Source: a virus (lineage: Duplodnaviria; Heunggongvirae; Uroviricota; Caudoviricetes). Taken from it: DNA of 64,000 nucleotides. The stretch lies in IMG/VR virus record IMGVR_UViG_3300025011_000026. The stretch is one strand, 5' to 3'. This document shows positions 7,242-64,000 of this stretch, piece after piece. Position 1 is the stretch's first letter; every line of letters starts with the position of its first letter. The position numbers and the translations under genes are program-made. Under the pieces are notes generated by a model. It was not told where the DNA came from and ran no database searches. It worked only from the letters and a program-made list of their open reading frames with translations.

Positions 7242-7529
7242 ATGAAGAAATTTTTCCACATCGTATTACCAATCATATTATCAATTGGTTTAACTGGCTG
7301 TGGTAGTAAAGGTACAACAGTAACTAGAATAAGTCAATATGATGGAGTTAAAGTTGTTTTTACGGGTAGCGTAGATAATCAATATGCTACATATGAATGG
7401 AAACTTAGAGATTATGATTTTACTGAAAAAGGAATGGAAGAAATCGTAAAACTAAATCCTAAAAACGGAGATAGAGTTAAAATAAATACTATAGGGTCTT
7501 TAATACTAAAATTGACCATATTGAATTAG
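7242..7529 (+). CDS. lipoprotein
   Basis: N-terminal MKKFFHIVLPIILSIGLTGC carries signal peptide II with lipobox LTGC. SD AAAGGAG. Confidence 0.75.
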   Translation: MKKFFHIVLPIILSIGLTGCGSKGTTVTRISQYDGVKVVFTGSVDNQYATYEWKLRDYDFTEKGMEEIVKLNPKNGDRVKINTIGSLILKLTILN

Positions 7530-7983: not shown

Positions 7984-8454
7984 ATGTCAATGACCATAGG
8001 TGTAATTTCAGGTATGGTAGCATTAGGTGCTTTTGGTATAGGATATTATTTATACAACTCTAAAAACAAATCTATTCCTAATTCTAATTCTAAACCAGAA
8101 ATCAAAGTAAAAGAAATCAAACAAAAGCAAAAAGTTGAATTATCACAGAAAACATATGCTCCATTAAATTATGTTCCTAAAAATACAAAACCAACTCCTA
8201 AGACAACTTATAATTCTAATTCTAATCAAAATCGTAAGAATAATAATCATGTTGAAGATGATTATTTGTTAAATACTTCAATAGGTTTTGGAATTATTAG
8301 TTCTGCATCAGATGATCATGATAGTCATAAACATTCATATCATAGTTCGCATAGTTATCATGACTCACATGATAGTGGTAGTAGTTCGCATAGCTCGTAT
8401 GATTCTGGTGGCAGTTCTGACTCAAGTAGTTGTGATTGTGGAGGATGTGATTAA
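7984..8454 (+). CDS. membrane-anchored protein with His/Ser/Asp-rich tail
   Basis: One N-terminal TM helix (IGVISGMVALGAFGIGYYLY). C-terminus is DDHDSHKHSYHSSHSYHDSHDSGSSSHSSYDSGGSSDSSSCDCGGCD. Confidence 0.6.
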   Translation: MSMTIGVISGMVALGAFGIGYYLYNSKNKSIPNSNSKPEIKVKEIKQKQKVELSQKTYAPLNYVPKNTKPTPKTTYNSNSNQNRKNNNHVEDDYLLNTSIGFGIISSASDDHDSHKHSYHSSHSYHDSHDSGSSSHSSYDSGGSSDSSSCDCGGCD

Positions 8455-8738: not shown

Positions 8739-8864
8739 TTGTTTGTATTATTTATTCTATCTATAGTTGCAATACTACTATTCTTAGCAATACCACTATA
8801 CGGTAAAATAGGCCAGAAGATTGAAAATGTAGAAAATAAAATTAAAGAGGAGATTAAAAAATAA
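8739..8864 (+). CDS. 41-aa single-TM peptide coupled to the SPFH gene
   Basis: TTG start after AAAGGATG. Translation MFVLFILSIVAILLFLAIPLYGKIGQKIENVENKIKEEIKK. Its stop overlaps the SPFH ATG (TAATG). Confidence 0.45.
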   Translation: MFVLFILSIVAILLFLAIPLYGKIGQKIENVENKIKEEIKK

Positions 8865-9775
8865 TGAGAAATAATATTAATATTGATATGAGTAATTTTA
8901 AAATAAATAAATTCACCAAAGGTTTGATTGCTACCGGAGTATCAGCAGTTGTTTTACTTGCAGGATTTGGAATGTCAACTACAAAGATTAATCCAGGACA
9001 TGCAGGAATCATTTATAACATGCGTGGAGGTTTAGAGGAAAATACGCTATCACAAGGATGGCATATAGTCGCTCCTTGGAAATCAGTTAGAGAATATCCT
9101 GTATCAACTGAAACAGTATGGTTAACACAATCAAAAACAGAAGGTTCTCCAAATGATGATTCGTTCAATACCTCAACAATGGAAGGAAAACCAGTTTCAG
9201 TTGATGCATATTTTACATACCATGTTGATGTTGATAAATTACCTGCCATATTTACTCGCTTCAAAGGTGCTTCAATTGAAAGTATTTCTGGAGGATATTT
9301 AAAACAACAAATAAAAACAGCATCTCAATCAATTACTTCTGGATATAGTGTTATGGATTTATATGGAAATAAGCGTACAGAAATTCAATTAAAAGTACAC
9401 GAATTATTAATCAAAGAACTTACTCCATTTGGTTTGGTAATTGAAACATTTAGTTTTGGTGAAATTCGTCCTGATGAAGAAACCAAAAAAGCAATTCAAT
9501 TAAAGGTTGATGCACAGCAAAAATTACAACAGATGGAAACAGAATTGATGCAATCTAAAGTATTAGCTGATAAAGCAAGAGTTGATGCTCAAGGTGTTGC
9601 AGACGCAAGTCTTATCAAAGCAGAAGGTGAAGCAAAAGCAAATCAAGTATTACAAGCATCTTTGACGGATGCACTTGTAAGATATCAAACTGTTTTGAAA
9701 TGGAATGGTGCATACCCTCAAGTTGTAGGTGGTAATCAAATTATTAGTTTGCCAATGGCAGATGCAGGGAAATAA
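8864..9775 (+). CDS. SPFH / band-7 (prohibitin-HflC-like) membrane protein
   Basis: N-terminal TM helix, then PGHAGIIYNMRGGLEENTLSQGWHIVAPWKSVREYPVSTE, typical of the SPFH domain start. The C-terminus is an Ala/Gln/Lys-rich coiled coil. Confidence 0.75.
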   Translation: MRNNINIDMSNFKINKFTKGLIATGVSAVVLLAGFGMSTTKINPGHAGIIYNMRGGLEENTLSQGWHIVAPWKSVREYPVSTETVWLTQSKTEGSPNDDSFNTSTMEGKPVSVDAYFTYHVDVDKLPAIFTRFKGASIESISGGYLKQQIKTASQSITSGYSVMDLYGNKRTEIQLKVHELLIKELTPFGLVIETFSFGEIRPDEETKKAIQLKVDAQQKLQQMETELMQSKVLADKARVDAQGVADASLIKAEGEAKANQVLQASLTDALVRYQTVLKWNGAYPQVVGGNQIISLPMADAGK

Positions 9776-9790
9776 TAAGAATCTTAGTTA

Positions 9791-9827
9791 GTGAAACCCT
9801 TGCCAGAGTAAGGGTATAGGGTTTCAC
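9791..9827 (+). terminator. stem-loop after the SPFH gene
   Basis: GTGAAACCCT ... AGGGTTTCAC forms a 10-bp stem. The T-tract is weak. Confidence 0.4.
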
Positions 9828-9914
9828 ATTTGGTTAAAATTACGTTATTGTTGTTTAATATAAATAATTACATTTAAATTATAATTAAATTTTAATAAAG
9901 GAGAATGATAAATT

Positions 9915-10238
9915 ATGAACACAATAATTATCAATGGAACTAAAATCCAAACAAGTGGTAATAATATTTCAGTTGTAAATGGAATTATATATTGTGATGG
10001 AAAGGTTGCTTTATCTGGTTTATCAGGTGACGTAAATATTAAATTTGAAGGCGATTTGGCATCTTTAAAATGTGATGGAAGTGCTGAGATAAGTGGTAGT
10101 ATAAAAGGCAATGTAGATGTCGGAGGATCTTTAGAGTGTGGTGATGTCGGAGGAAATGTTGATGCAGGTGGAAGTATACGATGTGGCAAGGTGTCTGGAG
10201 ATATTGATGCTGGAGGTAGCGTTAAGTGTAGTCGGTGA
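9915..10238 (+). CDS. beta-helix repeat protein (bactofilin-like / polymer-forming type)
   Basis: Iterated G(D/N)V(D)xGGSxxCG units (GNVDVGGSLECG, GNVDAGGSIRCG, GDIDAGGSVKCS). SD AAAGGAGA. Confidence 0.35.
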   Translation: MNTIIINGTKIQTSGNNISVVNGIIYCDGKVALSGLSGDVNIKFEGDLASLKCDGSAEISGSIKGNVDVGGSLECGDVGGNVDAGGSIRCGKVSGDIDAGGSVKCSR

Positions 10239-10273
10239 TTCAATAAATTATTCATAAATACTAAAATAATTAT

Positions 10274-10302
10274 TTGACATGTAGGAAGTAAAATGTTATA
10301 AT
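10274..10302 (+). promoter_or_regulatory. near-consensus sigma-A promoter
   Basis: TTGACA, 17 nt, TGtTATAAT. Confidence 0.65.
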
Positions 10303-10350
10303 GAATAAGTAGAGAAGTTACATAAGAATCGAGGAGGTGATAAATCTTAA

Positions 10351-10914
10351 TTGAATTTTAACAGACCAAAGAATGAATCAGAAACACATTTTCTACTAAA
10401 AGAAATATCTAAATACATATTATTTGGTTGGGGATATAAAATGATTGGAACAGAAGTCCATGGCATGTGGGACTTAGACATTGGTAAAAAGAGAAAAGAA
10501 ATTATAGATTGCGTAGGACTTAAAAAGATATCAGAAGGCAGAGGTAAATTTCATTATGATATCAAAGGAATTGAAGCAAAAGCAAGTTTGTCAGATTATA
10601 ATAATGGATTTTGTTGCGCTCCTGCAATGAGTTATGTTATAAGTACAGTAAATACTATTCCAGTTAATATTTTGCCTCAATCTGTAGGATTAATTGAAGT
10701 AGATTTTGATATCTTTGAATTAAAGAAATATTCACAGAAAATCCCTGATATGCAAGGAGTTAAGTTAGTAAAAAGAGCAAAAAGAAAAATTGATAGTAGA
10801 TTTAAAAGTGAAGAAAAGTATAGGAAGTTTTGTAGTGATTGTTTAGAGAAAGTGGCGTATAGAAGCAGTTCAGAGTTGTTGTTTTGGAGAAATTATATAG
10901 AGTTTGTCAATTAG
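10351..10914 (+). CDS. putative PD-(D/E)XK nuclease (MmcB-like)
   Basis: E..H in the first helix, D in IIDCVGL and GIEAKASLSDY fit a D...E-x-K core like MmcB/DUF1052 proteins. SD GAGGAGGTG then TTG. Confidence 0.4.
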   Translation: MNFNRPKNESETHFLLKEISKYILFGWGYKMIGTEVHGMWDLDIGKKRKEIIDCVGLKKISEGRGKFHYDIKGIEAKASLSDYNNGFCCAPAMSYVISTVNTIPVNILPQSVGLIEVDFDIFELKKYSQKIPDMQGVKLVKRAKRKIDSRFKSEEKYRKFCSDCLEKVAYRSSSELLFWRNYIEFVN

Positions 10915-12628: not shown

Positions 12629-12699
12629 GAAGGGTTTTGGTTGAATTAGGTTGAGGTTGTGAAATGTTTTTATGAATTGTAAAATAAATATATATTTGA
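12629..12699. repeat. C-free tract, inverted copy of the G-free element family
   Basis: The reverse complement CACAACCTCAACCTAATTCAACCAAAACCC resembles CAACCTAATCCAATCCCAAACCA at about 60475. Confidence 0.4.
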
Positions 12700-12725
12700 C
12701 ATGGGTTTGAGTAATATGGTATAAT
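12696..12725 (+). promoter_or_regulatory. strong promoter of the replication operon
   Basis: TTGACA, 18 nt, TGgTATAAT, with an A/T-rich UP-like AAAATAAATATATA upstream. Confidence 0.6.
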
Positions 12726-12898: not shown

Positions 12899-14005
12899 AT
12901 GGCATTTTATAACAAGTTTATTTTCATTGGTGATATTGGTATAGCGAAAGATAAAGAAAAATTTTATAATTCATTTTTAAATGATAAAGGAACATGGAGA
13001 TCATCTAAGATCAATTTCATGATTAAAGAATCTGACCATAATGCAGTATTTGTAGAACTATTTGGTGGGTATATGGCTGATGGAAAAGGGAAAGTATTCT
13101 CAAAGGATTTAGAAAATAATAATATTGAAATTCCTTGGGCAGATCGTAATAATACAGAAACTTTAAAAATGGTAGCAGATATGAAAAAATTTAAAGTTAA
13201 TTTTGGAGAACAAAAAGAATTTATTACAGAGTTCGATATGATTGAGTGTTTAAAAGATGAACTTCCCAAGATTACAAAACCAGTTGTAATTACAGGACAA
13301 ATTAAACATAAAGAATATAAGGGAAAATATACGGATGTATTCATCATTAAAACTATAAGACTTGCTAAAGAAGATGAAAAGAATAAACTCTCTGCTAATA
13401 TAGAAATTTATTACTCTAAAGATTCTTTAGACACAGATGATTTTAAAGAAGAAAAAATTATTAAACTTGCAGGATTTGTTCCTCAATACATAGATAAAGA
13501 GACTGGTATAAAATATATGCCACATCCATTTATATTGAGTGCTAAGAAATTAGATTTCACAAATGAAAAGCATGTAGAAAAATTTGAGTTCTTAAAGAAA
13601 TATCTTACAGTAAAAACTAAAACTTATGTGCATATTCCTTGGCAAATGACAGTCTTTAGAGGTGCTGATGAAGTTGATTGGAATGAATCAATGCTTACTA
13701 AGGCACAAAAAGAACAGGTTGCGTTTGGTCTTTCTTCTGTAGATGATTTTAAACCTAAATCAAATATGCTTGGAGGCAACATATATGAGTATCGTTTAAC
13801 TAAACCATTATTGGTAGGAGATTTTTCCGAAGGAGTAGTAGATTCTGAGATTAAAATTGAAGAATTCGAAAATAATAATGTATTCACTCCAGTAGAAAAA
13901 ACTGAAAAATTTAAAAAACCTAAAGAAGAAAAACTCATTGAGCAGAAAGTGGAATCAAAGGTTGATGAAGTCATTAGTAAAGATGATGAAGATTTATTTT
14001 CTTAA
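12899..14005 (+). CDS. putative single-stranded DNA-binding protein (divergent)
   Basis: First gene of the replisome operon. The acidic C-terminal tip DDEDLFS resembles the SSB DDDIPF partner-binding tail. No canonical OB motif could be verified by eye. Confidence 0.4.
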   Translation: MAFYNKFIFIGDIGIAKDKEKFYNSFLNDKGTWRSSKINFMIKESDHNAVFVELFGGYMADGKGKVFSKDLENNNIEIPWADRNNTETLKMVADMKKFKVNFGEQKEFITEFDMIECLKDELPKITKPVVITGQIKHKEYKGKYTDVFIIKTIRLAKEDEKNKLSANIEIYYSKDSLDTDDFKEEKIIKLAGFVPQYIDKETGIKYMPHPFILSAKKLDFTNEKHVEKFEFLKKYLTVKTKTYVHIPWQMTVFRGADEVDWNESMLTKAQKEQVAFGLSSVDDFKPKSNMLGGNIYEYRLTKPLLVGDFSEGVVDSEIKIEEFENNNVFTPVEKTEKFKKPKEEKLIEQKVESKVDEVISKDDEDLFS

Positions 14006-57006: not shown

Positions 57007-58557
57007 ATGAAAATTCTATTTTCTGATAAAGTTAAGGATATTAAATTGGAAGGAGATATACATGATATGAGTAGGAAAAGTAAGGAGAGATTTACACAGA
57101 TGGATATTGGTTTGGTTAATGCAGTAAAGGAAGAGGTGATGAACGGAATGAGTGATAATCACTCAGAAGAAGATCAAGAAATGATTCAGGAGATGGAAAG
57201 CATCACTCGTGAAGAAACTGCCGTTGGTTATGAGAGTGCAAATAGTTTTGAAGAGAATAGTAAAAGTGGAGATGTTATTAATTTGGGTGAGAAATCTATG
57301 CCAGCATTTGGTAGTTTAAGTGAAAAGACTAAAATAGAAGAGTCAAATGGGGATGATAAAGAGCAAATGTCAACTGAAGAATTTAATGAAACTAGAAATG
57401 AAGTTTTAGATAGTAAGAGTGAGTTCGAAAAGAAAAAGGAATTAAGAGAAGCAAATAAATTGAAACGAGATATGAGAAGTAAATTAAAGCAATTAGACAG
57501 TGAAAATGATGATAAATCATGGGAACTAAACAATGTCCAAATCGTCTTGCGTGATGGTAAGCCTTATAAATATTTGGTATCACTATCTTGTATGCAGTTG
57601 GCTGAGTGGTATATCTCTAAAAAGCTGATTTACGATTTTGGCGTACAAAGAGGCAGTAAAACCAATAAAAAAGGCGAGGAAGTACCTATACTTTTTCTAA
57701 AACATTGCAATGATATCAAAACTGCAATTTTAGATGGGTCAATTCACGGGGGAACATTGAGTCTAAATTTGCCTACTGACAATAATACACAACTTTTTTA
57801 TGACGAAGACAATATGACTTTAAGTTCTGACGTTCCCTTAACCATAAATGATGGTTTTCACCGCATATATGCAAGTTATTTGTGGTATAAGGAATTTGTT
57901 AAACCAAATAGTACATGTAAAAGTCCTGAAACGTTCTATTTTCCAGCCAATATTGAGCATATTAGTAGACAAGCGAGTTGTGATTTATTCAAAGAATATG
58001 CGGTTATGGGGAAATCTATTAGTAAGAACAGGATTAGTGTCCATAATGTATTTGATAAAAATTATGAAATCACACAGAGGGTTGCAAAATCATCTCAACT
58101 TCGTGGACGTATAGAAATGATTTCTAATTCAATTAAAAGAAGTAGTCCTTGCATTTTTACTTATGGTACAATATTAAATGGAGTATCTGAATTTAAGGTT
58201 ATTACTCAGGGGAAAGAAGAAGAAGTTGGTAATTTCATCATTGAGTTCTTAAATGAATTAATCGAATTATTTCCTAATCTAATGGGTCATGTTGATTCAG
58301 AAACAAGAGCGATAGAAAAACAAAAGAGTTTTGTACTCGAAAAAATGTTTCAAAATTCTTATTTTGTGTTAGCTAGTCAATTACAAGGTAAAGATGATTG
58401 GAAGAGTAGATTGGCTAAATTGACACAAAACAATTTCCTATCAAGAAGTAATCCAATGTGGGGCTTTTGCCTTAGAGAAGGCGAAAAAATAGTGAATTCT
58501 TCAAAGGTGCAAAAAACAATTACTGAGAAAATTATTGACTATGTGATGGCAAACTAA
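57007..58557 (+). CDS. ParB/Srx-fold DGQHR-type (DndB-like) protein with acidic disordered N-terminus
   Basis: FGVQRG ... LTINDGFHRIYASYLW resembles the QR ... DGQHR signature of DndB/DGQHR-domain proteins. The first ~170 aa are Glu/Asp/Ser/Lys-rich. Confidence 0.4.
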   Translation: MKILFSDKVKDIKLEGDIHDMSRKSKERFTQMDIGLVNAVKEEVMNGMSDNHSEEDQEMIQEMESITREETAVGYESANSFEENSKSGDVINLGEKSMPAFGSLSEKTKIEESNGDDKEQMSTEEFNETRNEVLDSKSEFEKKKELREANKLKRDMRSKLKQLDSENDDKSWELNNVQIVLRDGKPYKYLVSLSCMQLAEWYISKKLIYDFGVQRGSKTNKKGEEVPILFLKHCNDIKTAILDGSIHGGTLSLNLPTDNNTQLFYDEDNMTLSSDVPLTINDGFHRIYASYLWYKEFVKPNSTCKSPETFYFPANIEHISRQASCDLFKEYAVMGKSISKNRISVHNVFDKNYEITQRVAKSSQLRGRIEMISNSIKRSSPCIFTYGTILNGVSEFKVITQGKEEEVGNFIIEFLNELIELFPNLMGHVDSETRAIEKQKSFVLEKMFQNSYFVLASQLQGKDDWKSRLAKLTQNNFLSRSNPMWGFCLREGEKIVNSSKVQKTITEKIIDYVMAN

Positions 58558-62748: not shown

Positions 62749-64000
62749 CTAAACATCTTCCCTAACAAATACAATCTTACTACCTTTATATCCCAATTCA
62801 TTCTTTATAATTTTATACAAATCATAAATCTCTCCTTTATTAGCAAAATCACCTATCATTACCTTATAATAATTTCCCCTTTCAAAAACATAAATATTAT
62901 AATCTAATCCTCTACTAATTAATTCATCCACTAAATTATCAGCATCACTTTCTATCTTTGTAGATAAAACTTGAACAGAATAATATTTATCGGTATCTAC
63001 AATTGTTATGTATTTAGTATCTGTTTTATTTAGGTATTTTGCTGTGATTTTAACTTTTCCTGTTTTATTTGAATTTGCAATTAAAAGACCATTGTTGTCT
63101 ATTGTTGCAATAGATGGATTTGAAGTTGACCATTCTGCTTTGTCGGTAAAATTATATTTGCCATCAACTATTGCTGATAATTGTAAATTAGAATCAACAA
63201 ACACTTTAGGATAATCTACTTCTATGTCTAATCTTTTGATTTTTGGCATTGGATTAGGAGGTGTTATTTCTTTTTCATTAGAATCAACTATTGCCCAATA
63301 TTCATTTATAGGATAACCTTCTGCTGGCATGTAACAATAACCAGAAAACTCTCCCCAGTCTTTACCCCATGAGTTTAAAATTTTAAAATATAATTTATTA
63401 TGTATCATCTTCCATCCAATAATTGAGGTCGCATGATTTCCGTTATAATTTTCTAGTGTTTTGTCAGGAACAGGAAGTATCCCTCCACGATAAAATGAAC
63501 TATACACCCTAAAACTAATATATACTGGCCCAATATTAACAAGAGATTTTTTAATTTCAGATATATTGTGTAATCTGATATAATCTTTTATCCTATGATT
63601 CTTTGCTTCATCAATCATAGACTGTGTTATTTTTGCCTTTAGCTCAGGGTAATTACCTTGATCTGAAAAGGATGAGTTTAAACATGTTCCATTTAATTTT
63701 AACGCAGAAATTGCGTCAATGCTATACATCCCTTCGCCTTCATATCCACCAATACGATGGGCATAAATAAATCCTGCTGAATGATCTTCATTAGGATTTT
63801 CATTATTCAGACCTAATATATCCTTTATTCCGCGAAGAGCATAACTTACGCAACTTGAATATGGCCCTTGATCTAGGACTTCAGGCAATAAATTTGGAAT
63901 TGTATACTCTCCTACATCTAAATTTATAGATTTTATTACATTATTGTTTTCTATAAAATCATTTAGTTCTATTGTGCCAGTTTCATTTTCAGATGCAGGA
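62749..64000 (-). CDS. papain-family (C1) cysteine peptidase - Big_2 - SPOR protein, 5' end outside window
   Basis: Q-x5-C (DQGPYSSCVSYA), His (NHATSIIGW) and N-S-W (ILNSWGKDWG). Big_2-like SNPSIATIDNNGLLIANSNKTGKVKITAKY. SPOR-like YYSVQVLS ... YYKVMIGDF. The frame stays open to base 64000, so the track start at 63888 is not the true start. Confidence 0.7.
   Translation of the reverse strand, partial: PASENETGTIELNDFIENNNVIKSINLDVGEYTIPNLLPEVLDQGPYSSCVSYALRGIKDILGLNNENPNEDHSAGFIYAHRIGGYEGEGMYSIDAISALKLNGTCLNSSFSDQGNYPELKAKITQSMIDEAKNHRIKDYIRLHNISEIKKSLVNIGPVYISFRVYSSFYRGGILPVPDKTLENYNGNHATSIIGWKMIHNKLYFKILNSWGKDWGEFSGYCYMPAEGYPINEYWAIVDSNEKEITPPNPMPKIKRLDIEVDYPKVFVDSNLQLSAIVDGKYNFTDKAEWSTSNPSIATIDNNGLLIANSNKTGKVKITAKYLNKTDTKYITIVDTDKYYSVQVLSTKIESDADNLVDELISRGLDYNIYVFERGNYYKVMIGDFANKGEIYDLYKIIKNELGYKGSKIVFVREDV

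What the first reader, a model, noticed from the sequence alone, without database searches (positions are those of the whole stretch)
8739..10914. Small-TM peptide + SPFH protein, beta-helix repeat protein and MmcB-like nuclease as an early-region accessory cluster
**Seen in sequence**
- A 41-aa TM peptide is translationally coupled (TAATG) to a 303-aa SPFH/band-7 protein, with a hairpin after the pair.
- A bactofilin-like GGS/Cys beta-helix protein follows.
- A consensus extended -10 promoter then drives a putative PD-(D/E)XK nuclease.

**Established knowledge**
- SPFH proteins normally pair with NfeD partners and scaffold or regulate membrane proteases such as FtsH.

**Inference**
- Here the partner is replaced by a minimal peptide.
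- The module could manipulate host membrane proteolysis (for example lysis-lysogeny control) or act in superinfection exclusion.
Basis: partly seen in the sequence, partly recalled or inferred. Interest (0 to 1): 0.5.

Follow-up and report, generated by a model that had tools for sequence, protein, structure and literature searches.

The report
Phage prohibitin-like protein with mini-partner
A large phage from groundwater carries a prohibitin-like membrane-scaffold gene whose start overlaps a 41-residue membrane peptide gene; this peptide is a conserved partner found in nearly all related phages, while the two genes that follow (a bactofilin-like beta-helix protein and an MmcB-like nuclease) are unrelated neighbours.

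Summary
They are not one four-gene unit.

**The conserved unit: peptide + SPFH (8739-9775)**
- The SPFH protein is closest to prohibitin among solved structures.
- A profile of the peptide family found an adjacent copy in 85 of 93 Bacillota-type loci. It found no copy anywhere else in the roughly 1.1 Mb held at that point.
- In 70 of 83 loci the peptide stop overlaps the SPFH start.
- Peptide and SPFH distances correlate (Mantel r = 0.91). The peptide is under purifying selection (dN/dS 0.2-0.3).
- No other neighbouring gene recurs.
- Gram-negative phages carry an analogous pair: an SPFH lipoprotein with an overlapping 2-TM protein (77 of 77 loci).
- In Staphylococcus kayviruses the counterpart, mbpV-mbpS, is its own early and abundant transcription unit.

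**The other two genes**
- The beta-helix protein is bactofilin-related. It is absent from every relative examined.
- The 187-aa protein has a PD-(D/E)XK fold. Its closest solved structure is 3dnx, the MmcB-like representative. It occurs in only a few relatives.

**Function**
Function is untested. I favour a two-subunit cage on the outer face of the host membrane, possibly corralling FtsH. Exclusion of other phages and lysis control remain open.

The parts
8739..8864 (+). Gene for a 41-aa single-pass membrane peptide. It has an N-terminal TM helix (about residues 1-22), then the YGKIG motif, an amphipathic Lys/Glu helix and a charged tail. It belongs to a conserved family of partners of phage prohibitin-like SPFH genes.
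   Evidence: ORF and TTG start with a strong SD. An HMM trained without the window's clade scores it 23.4 bits, while non-adjacent small TM ORFs score at most 9.1 bits. The family peptide is adjacent in 85 of 93 loci. dN/dS is 0.2-0.3. Lys+Arg bias after the TM in 53 of 57 pairs suggests N-out/C-in. The gene was not called on the source contig and is absent from the protein collection.
8864..9775 (+). Gene for a 303-aa prohibitin-like SPFH (Band 7) protein. It has an N-terminal membrane anchor (about residues 20-38), an SPFH domain (41-229), an Ala/Glu/Lys-rich helical region and a C-terminal cap segment. Its start overlaps the peptide stop (TAATG).
   Evidence: Pfam Band_7 E 2e-26 and phrog_200 E 7e-63. 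The closest solved relatives are prohibitin 1/2 (E 6e-16), then HflK (3e-6), then QmcA. Homologues are named 'prohibitin family protein'. 666 phage records hold a homologue.
9791..9827 (+). Stable stem-loop after the SPFH stop. It may be a transcript end or a stabiliser. It has no U-tract.
   Evidence: dG -20.7 kcal/mol, z -3.8. Not called by the terminator scan. Absent in the closest relatives L003 and L006-L008. Stable hairpins, several with U-tracts, follow the pair in Bacillus, Staphylococcus, PBS1 and other loci.
9915..10238 (+). Independent gene for a 107-aa Cys-bearing beta-helix protein related to bactofilins (phrog_3163). It is not part of the SPFH module.
10274..10302 (+). Consensus sigma-70-type promoter (TTGACA, 17 nt, TG-n-TATAAT) upstream of the nuclease gene.
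   Evidence: 12/12 match with TG. It is one of two such sites on the + strand of the window. It is not conserved upstream of the nuclease homologues in L007 and L003.
10351..10914 (+). Independent gene for a 187-aa PD-(D/E)XK-fold protein whose architecture resembles MmcB-like (DUF1052) proteins. It is a putative nuclease.

Best explanation
The functional unit is a two-gene cassette at 8739-9775. It encodes a prohibitin-like SPFH protein and an obligate small membrane subunit made in step with it by translational coupling.

By homology with prohibitin, HflK/C and QmcA, the SPFH protein most likely assembles into a ring or cage on the outer face of the host cytoplasmic membrane, anchored by its N-terminal helix. 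The 41-aa peptide (probably N-out, with its tail in the cytoplasm) most likely packs against that anchor as a membrane subunit of the assembly.

The complex would be made from early in infection. It would fence off a patch of host membrane and so control a membrane client. My first guess for the client is the host FtsH protease, as for HflK/C and prohibitin.

The beta-helix gene and the nuclease gene downstream are separate accessory genes. The nuclease has its own promoter. Neither belongs to the module.

- **Shown:** gene structure, family membership, conservation, co-inheritance and autonomy of the pair.
- **Shown in a homologous phage:** early, abundant, bicistronic transcription.
- **Inferred:** cage assembly, topology, peptide-anchor contact. 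I put the identity of the client as FtsH at about 0.3.
For: **Pairing**
- The family peptide is adjacent in 85 of 93 loci and has no hit of at least 15 bits elsewhere in the sequence searched.
- The peptide stop overlaps the SPFH start in 70 of 83 loci.
- Mantel r = 0.906, with 0 of 2000 permutations as high.
- Peptide dN/dS is 0.2-0.3.

**Autonomy**
- 113 flanking proteins from 30 loci hit 163 PHROGs. None occurs in more than 2 members.
- Hairpins or terminators follow the pair in several distant phages.

**Parallel design in Gram-negative phages**
- An SPFH lipoprotein with an overlapping 2-TM partner occurs in 77 of 77 loci.
- This also places the SPFH domain outside the cytoplasm.

**Homology**
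- Prohibitin 1/2 E 6e-16, HflK 3e-6, QmcA 4e-4.

**Topology**
- The peptide shows a positive-inside bias in 53 of 57 pairs.

**Expression of the counterpart**
- Kayvirus TU15 is the mbpV-mbpS region, driven by early promoter p70 just upstream of mbpV. mbpS is at about 16-24 thousand CPM at 5, 15 and 30 min (PMC7698491).
- Terminators flank the pair in Staph1N.

**Separateness of the other genes:**
Against: - There is no direct evidence of a peptide-SPFH contact, of oligomerisation or of any client.
- No natural peptide-SPFH fusion was found among 120 homologues.
- The positive-inside bias of the SPFH anchor itself is weak: N side greater than C side in only 26 of 57 pairs.
- The Mantel correlation is expected in part from simple linkage.
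- Part of the Glu-rich tail of the peptides coincides with the SPFH ribosome-binding site, so tail conservation is not purely protein-level.
- A few loci carry a different small TM peptide (L096, L028/29, MbpV), or have the family peptide 730 nt away (L023/24).
- In Gram-negative homologues the residue after the lipobox Cys is not Asp. From general knowledge this points to outer-membrane sorting and complicates a single model.
Confidence: 0.55

Rival explanations
1. Superinfection exclusion or envelope protection. The pair is an early membrane complex acting at the outer face of the membrane. It blocks DNA entry or envelope damage by other phages or bacteriocins, as T4 Imm/Sp, HK97 gp15 or lipoprotein Sie factors do.
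For: The SPFH domain is probably extracytoplasmic, since Gram-negative homologues are lipoproteins. Expression in kayvirus is early, abundant and constant. The cassette has a moron-like, autonomous distribution in virulent and temperate phages and in bacterial genome contigs. Known exclusion factors are small early membrane proteins or lipoproteins (general knowledge).
Against: No known exclusion protein has an SPFH domain. PADLOC models gave no hit. Nothing here was tested. Strictly virulent phages with short cycles would gain less from exclusion, yet they carry the pair in large numbers (275 Staphylococcus records).
Confidence: 0.2
2. Lysis control. The small peptide is a holin-, antiholin- or toxin-like membrane-active peptide, and the SPFH cage holds it in check or times its action.
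For: The peptide architecture (N-terminal TM plus charged tail) resembles single-TM holins and type I toxins. MbpV was noted to resemble holins, and mbpV-mbpS lies between lysK and tgl in kayviruses (PMC7150955). Two of 113 flanking proteins from other loci are endolysins.
Against: In kayvirus the pair is a separate unit with an early promoter and is already abundant at 5 min. holA-lysK depends on a late promoter. In the window and in most loci no lysis gene is adjacent. Overlapping start and stop codons fit a partner made in step with SPFH better than a timed trigger.
Confidence: 0.1
3. One reading: all four genes (peptide, SPFH, beta-helix, nuclease) form one functional accessory cluster.
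For: They are contiguous, on one strand, in a block of small genes upstream of the replication module.
Against: The beta-helix gene is absent from all 82 related loci. The nuclease is present in 3 of them, and truncated in two of those. A hairpin and a separate consensus promoter lie between the genes. Neither element is conserved in close relatives. Beta-helix homologues in cultured phages lie far from the SPFH gene. The nuclease has no homologue in cultured phages.
Confidence: 0.04
4. The 41-codon ORF is not a functional protein. It is only an upstream ORF whose translation drives SPFH translation.
For: There is universal start/stop overlap. The SPFH Shine-Dalgarno lies inside the ORF's last codons. 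The gene was not called by the pipeline.
Against: dN/dS is 0.2-0.3, with conservative substitutions in the TM helix. A sequence motif and architecture are conserved across SPFH partners only 36% identical. The profile separates true partners from all other small TM ORFs. Gram-negative phages keep a 2-TM protein with a conserved motif in the same position.
Confidence: 0.05

Closest known systems
Kayvirus MbpV-MbpS (Staphylococcus phages K, G1, Staph1N, 515A1)
   Same: An SPFH membrane protein (MbpS, about 31% identical over 92% of the window protein) sits directly downstream of a gene for a small protein with an N-terminal TM helix and a charged tail. The two overlap by one base. They have their own early promoter and flanking terminators.
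   Different: MbpV is 102 aa, belongs to another PHROG (3667), and is not detected by the peptide profile. No function is known for either protein. The literature treats them as two hypothetical membrane proteins, not as a conserved pair (PMC7150955).
Prohibitin (PHB1/PHB2) and bacterial p-prohibitins (SPFH4)
   Same: Best sequence match among solved structures. N-terminal anchor, SPFH domain and helical region are arranged alike. Homologues are named 'prohibitin family protein'. No NfeD partner is expected for this subfamily (PMC2636767).
   Different: There is one SPFH gene rather than two paralogues forming heterodimers. It has an extra small TM partner and is phage-borne. Cage formation and protease regulation are not shown.
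HflK/HflC-FtsH complex
   Same: Extracytoplasmic SPFH assembly anchored by N-terminal helices, and a detectable sequence relation (E 3e-6). It is the model for the proposed action on a membrane protease.
   Different: The window protein falls far below the NCBIfam HflK cut-off (18.5 vs 159.4 bits). There is no hflC-like second gene. No FtsH link was tested.
Stomatin/flotillin-NfeD operons (for example QmcA-YbbJ, FloT-YuaF)
   Same: An SPFH gene shares an operon with, and co-evolves with, a membrane partner gene (PMC2636767).
   Different: NfeD partners have a soluble domain of shared structure, and those SPFH subfamilies are SPFH1/2/5. The 41-aa peptide has no room for such a domain and gives no Pfam hit.
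MmcB-like / DUF1052 proteins (PF06319; structure 3dnx)
   Different: No family member reaches the Pfam model: 3 of 35 at E about 0.09, and 0 of 58 distant relatives. It has about 45 extra C-terminal helical residues. Activity is unknown.
Bactofilins (PF04519)
   Same: For the 107-aa protein: beta-helical core, 31% identity to Thermus bactofilin over 65 residues, most homologues match the Pfam model, and NCBI names homologues 'polymer-forming cytoskeletal protein'.

Membership tests
SPFH / Band 7 superfamily (PF01145) | Match to the curated domain model above its gathering score | tested here: met
   93.3 bits against a cut-off of 23.6, residues 41-229.
SPFH / Band 7 superfamily (PF01145) | Membrane anchor at the N-terminus, followed by the SPFH domain and a helical oligomerisation region | tested here: met
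   Hydrophobic stretch at about residues 20-38. The profile aligns to prohibitin over positions 21-250 and to QmcA over 143-288.
SPFH / Band 7 superfamily (PF01145) | Assembly into large rings or cages on a membrane | not testable with these tools
   Needs multimer modelling or cryo-EM.
Prohibitin-like subfamily (SPFH4 / 'prohibitin family protein') | Closer to prohibitins than to HflK/C, stomatin or flotillin | tested here: met
   PDB profile search gives prohibitin 1/2 at E 6e-16 to 8e-14, HflK at 3e-6 and QmcA at 4e-4. Source names of homologues agree.
HflK/HflC | Equivalog-level match and a tandem pair of paralogous SPFH genes | tested here: not met
   TIGR01933 scores 18.5 bits against a cut-off of 159.4. 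There is a single SPFH gene.
NfeD partner proteins | TM segment(s) plus a soluble NfeD domain, encoded next to an SPFH1/2/5 gene | tested here: not met
   The peptide is 41 aa and gives no Pfam or NCBIfam hit. The SPFH gene is prohibitin-like, a subfamily for which no NfeD partner was identified.
Phage SPFH-associated small membrane peptide family (defined here; PHROGs 9657 and 35614 in part) | Small ORF with an N-terminal TM helix, an aromatic-x-x-hydrophobic-Gly motif and a charged tail, abutting or overlapping the start of a prohibitin-like SPFH gene | tested here: met
   A profile built without the window clade scores the window peptide 23.4 bits. The best of 2000 architecture-preserving shuffles scores 24.2, and their 95th percentile is 8.3. 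There is a weak phrog_35614 hit at E 0.003. The overlap is TAATG.
Kayvirus MbpV (phrog_3667) | Sequence similarity to MbpV | tested here: not met
   L083 (MbpV) is not found by the peptide profile at 15 bits or more. The two belong to different PHROGs. Only the architecture and gene position are shared.
Bactofilin (PF04519) | Match above the gathering score | tested here: not met
   22.5 bits against a cut-off of 27.9, although 21 of 37 homologues match at E below 0.01.
Bactofilin (PF04519) | Right-handed beta-helical core | tested here: met
Bactofilin (PF04519) | Polymer formation | not testable with these tools
   Needs experiment.
PD-(D/E)XK nuclease superfamily | Restriction-endonuclease-like alpha/beta core with a D...(D/E)xK signature | tested here: met
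MmcB-like (PF06319 / DUF1052) | Match to the Pfam model | tested here: not met
   No hit for the window protein. 3 of 35 relatives hit at E about 0.09. 0 of 58 distant relatives hit.
MmcB-like (PF06319 / DUF1052) | Structural similarity to the family's solved representative | tested here: met
Holins | Small TM protein encoded with an endolysin and expressed late | tested here: inconclusive
   The architecture is compatible. No lysis gene is adjacent in the window. The kayvirus counterpart is transcribed from an early promoter. Pore formation was not tested.
Known anti-phage defence systems (PADLOC) | Match to any model | tested here: not met
   No hit at E up to 0.1 for any of the seven proteins scanned, which include the four products of the finding.

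The most novel reading that the evidence does not exclude
Phage prohibitin-like SPFH proteins and their obligate mini-partners form an unrecognised, widespread two-component membrane cage system. The partners are single-TM peptides in Bacillota phages and 2-TM proteins in Gram-negative phages. The job of the system would be to shield the infected cell's membrane, for example against membrane-disrupting abortive-infection effectors or against superinfecting phages. That would make it a new class of counter-defence or exclusion device built on a scaffold conserved from bacteria to mitochondria.
Probability: 0.2. Interest if true: 0.75.

Novelty: new variant of a known kind. Interest (0 to 1): 0.5.

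Why it matters
SPFH genes occur in at least 666 sequenced phages. One peptide branch alone was seen on at least 1000 gut-derived contigs. Even so, papers still call their role in phages unclear or poorly understood (PMC13239085, PMC7760394).

Showing that the SPFH gene nearly always comes with an overlapping, co-inherited small membrane protein changes the question. It becomes a defined two-protein complex that can be co-expressed, imaged and deleted.

The complex would be a minimal homo-oligomeric prohibitin-type assembly with a 41-residue partner. That makes it an attractive model for how SPFH cages engage transmembrane helices.

The work also shows that gene callers miss the partner, so it is absent from protein databases for this clade.

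For the scan itself, the result separates one real conserved module from two unrelated neighbours.

Tried and rejected
**Searches that found nothing**
- DNA search of the region against cultured phages: no match.
- PADLOC and NCBIfam scans of the seven proteins: nothing useful.
- Sequence profile of the nuclease family against PDB: nothing significant.
- Pfam scan of 58 distant nuclease relatives: no family, so a transitive link to MmcB by sequence failed.
- Search for natural peptide-SPFH fusions among the homologues: none.
- Pfam scan of peptides and 2-TM partners: no curated family.

**Steps that needed a second attempt**
It was repeated with a tighter alignment.
- The first rule-based survey called about 10 loci 'exceptions'. 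The profile search showed most were errors in my choice of SPFH start codon.
- A strict motif for the Gram-negative partner found 4 of 77 loci. A corrected motif found 77 of 77.

**Ideas tested and rejected**
- A conserved third gene next to the pair was looked for and not found.
- A promoter directly upstream of the peptide gene was looked for and not found.

- The afdb50 fold library was unavailable.
A fused-chain model was considered and not attempted, because paired alignments could not be submitted.

**Literature**
- Searches found only passing mentions of phage SPFH genes.
Full report
**1. What is in the sequence**

- 8739-8864 encodes MFVLFILSIVAILLFLAIPLYGKIGQKIENVENKIKEEIKK. It has a TTG start 9-10 nt after AAGGATGTGAT, a near-perfect Shine-Dalgarno.
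- Its TAA shares base 8864 with the ATG of the 303-codon ORF 8864-9775.
- A stem-loop at 9791-9827 folds at -20.7 kcal/mol (z -3.8). It lacks a U-run and is not called a terminator.
- 9915-10238 encodes a 107-aa Gly/Cys-repeat protein.
- A perfect TTGACA-17-TGnTATAAT promoter lies at 10274-10302. It is one of only two perfect sites on the + strand of the window.
- 10351-10914 encodes a 187-aa protein.

The window comes from a large phage with its own Pol III alpha, DnaB-like helicase, ribonucleotide reductase and gyrase. Its nearest polymerase relatives are a human-faecal phage, Geobacillus E3, lactococcal 949-group phages and Clostridium phage c-st. An identical SPFH protein lies on a groundwater metagenome contig.

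**2. The SPFH protein**

- It passes the Pfam Band_7 threshold and matches phrog_200.
- Among solved structures it is closest to prohibitin 1/2 (E 6e-16), then HflK (3e-6), then QmcA and erlin.
- Database homologues are named 'prohibitin family protein'.
- It is far below the HflK equivalog cut-off.
- Homologues occur in 666 cultured-phage records: Staphylococcus 275, Bacillus 54, and Klebsiella, Erwinia, Burkholderia, Caulobacter and others.

A phage SPFH gene as such is therefore already known. Papers describe its role as unclear (PMC13239085; PMC7760394; PMC8540360).

**3. The peptide is a conserved partner, not a chance ORF**

- *First sign.* Bacillus phages vB_BcgM and B13 have 44- and 46-aa TM peptides abutting their SPFH genes.
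- *Survey.* I examined 80 viral loci, 31 bacterial-genome loci and six annotated phages. Most SPFH genes are preceded by a small ORF with an N-terminal TM helix.
- *Leave-out test.* A profile built from the partners, leaving out the window's own clade, scored the window peptide 23.4 bits. All other small TM ORFs in the loci and the window scored at most 9.1 bits. Of 2000 shuffles that preserve the TM/tail architecture, the best scored 24.2 and the 95th percentile was 8.3.
- *Rescued 'exceptions'.* The same profile recovered most loci I had first scored as exceptions. In those I had chosen the SPFH start too far upstream.
- *Full profile.* 85 of 93 loci with an SPFH at least 30% identical have the family peptide adjacent. 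No hit of 15 bits or more lies anywhere else on either strand.
- *The other eight loci.* They have the peptide 730 nt upstream (L023/24), fused into a longer ORF (L037), a different small TM peptide (L096, L028/29, kayvirus MbpV), or nothing found (L093).
- *Background rate.* By one fixed rule, a small TM ORF abuts only 3.3% of other ORFs of at least 150 aa in the same loci.
- *Coupling.* In 70 of 83 loci the peptide stop overlaps the SPFH start. The commonest forms are ATGA (36) and TAATG (18).
- *Co-inheritance.* Peptide and SPFH pairwise distances correlate at r = 0.906, with 0 of 2000 permutations as high.
- *Selection.* Within the window's clade the peptide has dN/dS 0.2-0.3, with conservative changes in the helix.
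- *Shared design.* A TM helix of about 20 residues starts at or near residue 1. It is followed by an aromatic-x-x-hydrophobic-Gly-(Lys/Arg) motif (YGKIGQK in the window), an amphipathic helix and a Lys/Glu tail.
- *Topology.* Lys+Arg counts are 0.5 before and 3.1 after the helix, with the bias present in 53 of 57 pairs. This suggests N-out, C-in.
- *Annotation status.* PHROGs splits these peptides among families 9657, 35614 and others, all of unknown function. Pfam has no model for them. The window's peptide was not called on its source contig and is absent from the 15-billion-protein collection. The gut (Blautia) branch is on at least 1000 contigs, always as 'hypothetical protein'.

**4. The pair is an autonomous cassette**

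- 113 flanking proteins from 30 non-redundant loci hit 163 PHROG families. None occurs in more than two members.
- Stable hairpins follow the pair in Bacillus, Staphylococcus, PBS1 and several metagenomic phages. Several of these have U-tracts.
- Gram-negative phages show the same logic with different parts. There the SPFH protein is a lipoprotein, and the overlapping upstream gene encodes a 63-84-aa two-TM protein with a conserved P-x-[ML]-[VI]-S-[AS] motif (phrog_1130/11742).
- This arrangement was found in 77 of 77 loci related to the Klebsiella phage Tribble protein. The motif occurs nowhere else in those loci.
- The lipoprotein form, the prohibitin/HflK homology and a weak positive-inside bias place the SPFH domain outside the cytoplasm. 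This is inference.

**5. Experimental anchor from a homologue**

In kayviruses the counterpart genes are mbpV (102 aa, N-terminal TM, charged tail) and mbpS (SPFH). They overlap by one base and lie between lysK and tgl (PMC7150955).

In phage vB_SauM-515A1 the early sigma-70 promoter p70 (TU15) lies just upstream of mbpV. TU15 is listed among the five most abundantly transcribed units. mbpS reads about 16-24 thousand CPM at 5, 15 and 30 min, with fold changes of only 1.2-1.3 (PMC7698491).

Terminator-like hairpins flank the pair in Staph1N. The holin-endolysin unit, by contrast, depends on a late promoter. This favours a role that starts early and lasts. It argues against a late lysis trigger.

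**6. The other two genes**

*Beta-helix protein*
- It belongs to phrog_3163. Homologues are named 'polymer-forming cytoskeletal protein' and 21 of 37 match Pfam Bactofilin. The window protein itself is below the cut-off.
- It has no homologue in any of 82 SPFH loci. In cultured phages its homologues lie 7-50 kb from the SPFH gene.

*187-aa protein*
- It has 84 close metagenomic relatives and 190 at profile level. It has none in cultured phages.
- E35, D53, E75-x-K77 and D82 are invariant.
- 3dnx is the structure of DUF1052/PF06319, now named MmcB-like (PMC3424549; family name). BFVD matches include phage proteins named 'MmcB-like DNA repair protein'.
- By sequence no family member reaches the Pfam model. 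It therefore works like an MmcB-type PD-(D/E)XK protein, but it is a family of its own.

*Synteny among the closest relatives (SPFH 75-83% identical)*
- Peptide and SPFH are always kept together.
- The beta-helix gene is absent from all.
- The nuclease is intact in L007 only and truncated in L003/L004.
- The hairpin and the consensus promoter are window-specific.

**7. Mechanism**

*Shown:* a conserved, overlapping, co-inherited two-gene cassette encoding a prohibitin-like SPFH protein and a small membrane protein.

*Inferred:*
- The SPFH protein forms a ring or cage on the outer face of the membrane, as its solved relatives do.
- The peptide is a membrane subunit that pairs with the SPFH anchor helix. 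I note that each pair contributes two membrane anchors in both lineages: 1 TM + 1 TM in Bacillota phages, and lipid + 2-TM in Gram-negative phages.
- The complex fences a host membrane client.

FtsH is the best precedent, because HflK/C, prohibitin and QmcA all act with FtsH-type proteases (PMC2636767). I put that step at about 0.3.

**8. Comparison and novelty**

- The SPFH gene is a member of a known phage family.
- The pair resembles the annotated but uncharacterised kayvirus mbpV-mbpS.
- It differs from NfeD-type operons, because the partner has no soluble domain and the SPFH subfamily is a different one.
- It differs from HflK/C and PHB1/2, because there is only one SPFH gene.
- In the literature I could search, I found no description of the small partner as a conserved family, or of the two-lineage parallel.

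I rate it a new variant of a known kind, of moderate interest. The function is open, and the module is widespread and experimentally tractable.

Noticed in passing
window 7242-7529 and 7984-8454: Just upstream of the pair lie two further envelope-targeted products. One is a 95-aa predicted lipoprotein (lipobox LTGC). The other is a 156-aa protein with an N-terminal TM helix and a His/Ser/Asp-rich tail ending in CDCGGCD. Together with the peptide and SPFH this makes four membrane or envelope products in a row. The lipoprotein is conserved in relative L007.
   Followed up: partly
L085, L087, L088 and L121-L200: Gram-negative phage SPFH homologues are lipoproteins. They are always preceded by an overlapping gene for a 63-84-aa two-TM protein with the motif P-x-[ML]-[VI]-S-[AS] (phrog_1130/11742), seen in 77 of 77 loci. 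The residue after the lipobox Cys is not Asp, which from general knowledge would suggest outer-membrane sorting.
   Followed up: partly
window 12696-12725: This is the second of the only two perfect sigma-70 promoters with an extended -10 on the + strand of the window. It lies ahead of the 368-aa gene at 12899 that opens the replication block.
   Followed up: no
L003 and L004, 4001-4912 and 6717-6992: In these close relatives the SPFH reading frame is interrupted (64 aa + 217 aa) and the nuclease homologue stops after 75 aa. This could be decay of both genes or assembly errors.
   Followed up: no
window 8846-8852 and the peptide tails in many loci: The Glu-Glu codons near the peptide C-terminus (GAGGAG) are also the Shine-Dalgarno of the SPFH gene. 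Part of the 'conserved acidic tail' may therefore reflect the ribosome-binding site rather than protein function.
   Followed up: no
L120 2840-3001 (source contig of the window): The public gene calls on the identical groundwater contig skip the 41-aa gene. The exact peptide sequence, and that of a close relative, are absent from the 15-billion-protein collection.
   Followed up: yes
L009 3195-3791 and 4913-5119: A relative with a 75% identical SPFH carries additional genes beside the family peptide. One encodes a 198-aa Ser/Pro-rich protein with a signal-like N-terminus and a C-terminal TM, upstream of the pair. The other encodes a 68-aa multi-TM protein, downstream.
   Followed up: no
L090, L096, L097 (bacterial genome contigs): Some bacterial copies of the SPFH gene sit next to large, chromosomal-looking genes rather than obvious phage genes; ABC-transporter families appear among the flanking proteins scanned. 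The family peptide is present in L090, a different short TM peptide in L096, and none was seen in L097. The cassette may not be confined to phages.
   Followed up: no
window 9845-10255 (- strand): A 136-codon Pro/Ser-rich ORF lies antisense to the beta-helix gene. It is most likely spurious, because the + strand product has many conserved homologues.
   Followed up: partly
window 57007-58557 and 62749-63888 (-): One protein contains a DndB-like domain. Another combines a papain-like peptidase C1 domain with Big_2 and SPOR domains, and may be a cell-wall-directed lytic enzyme.
   Followed up: no
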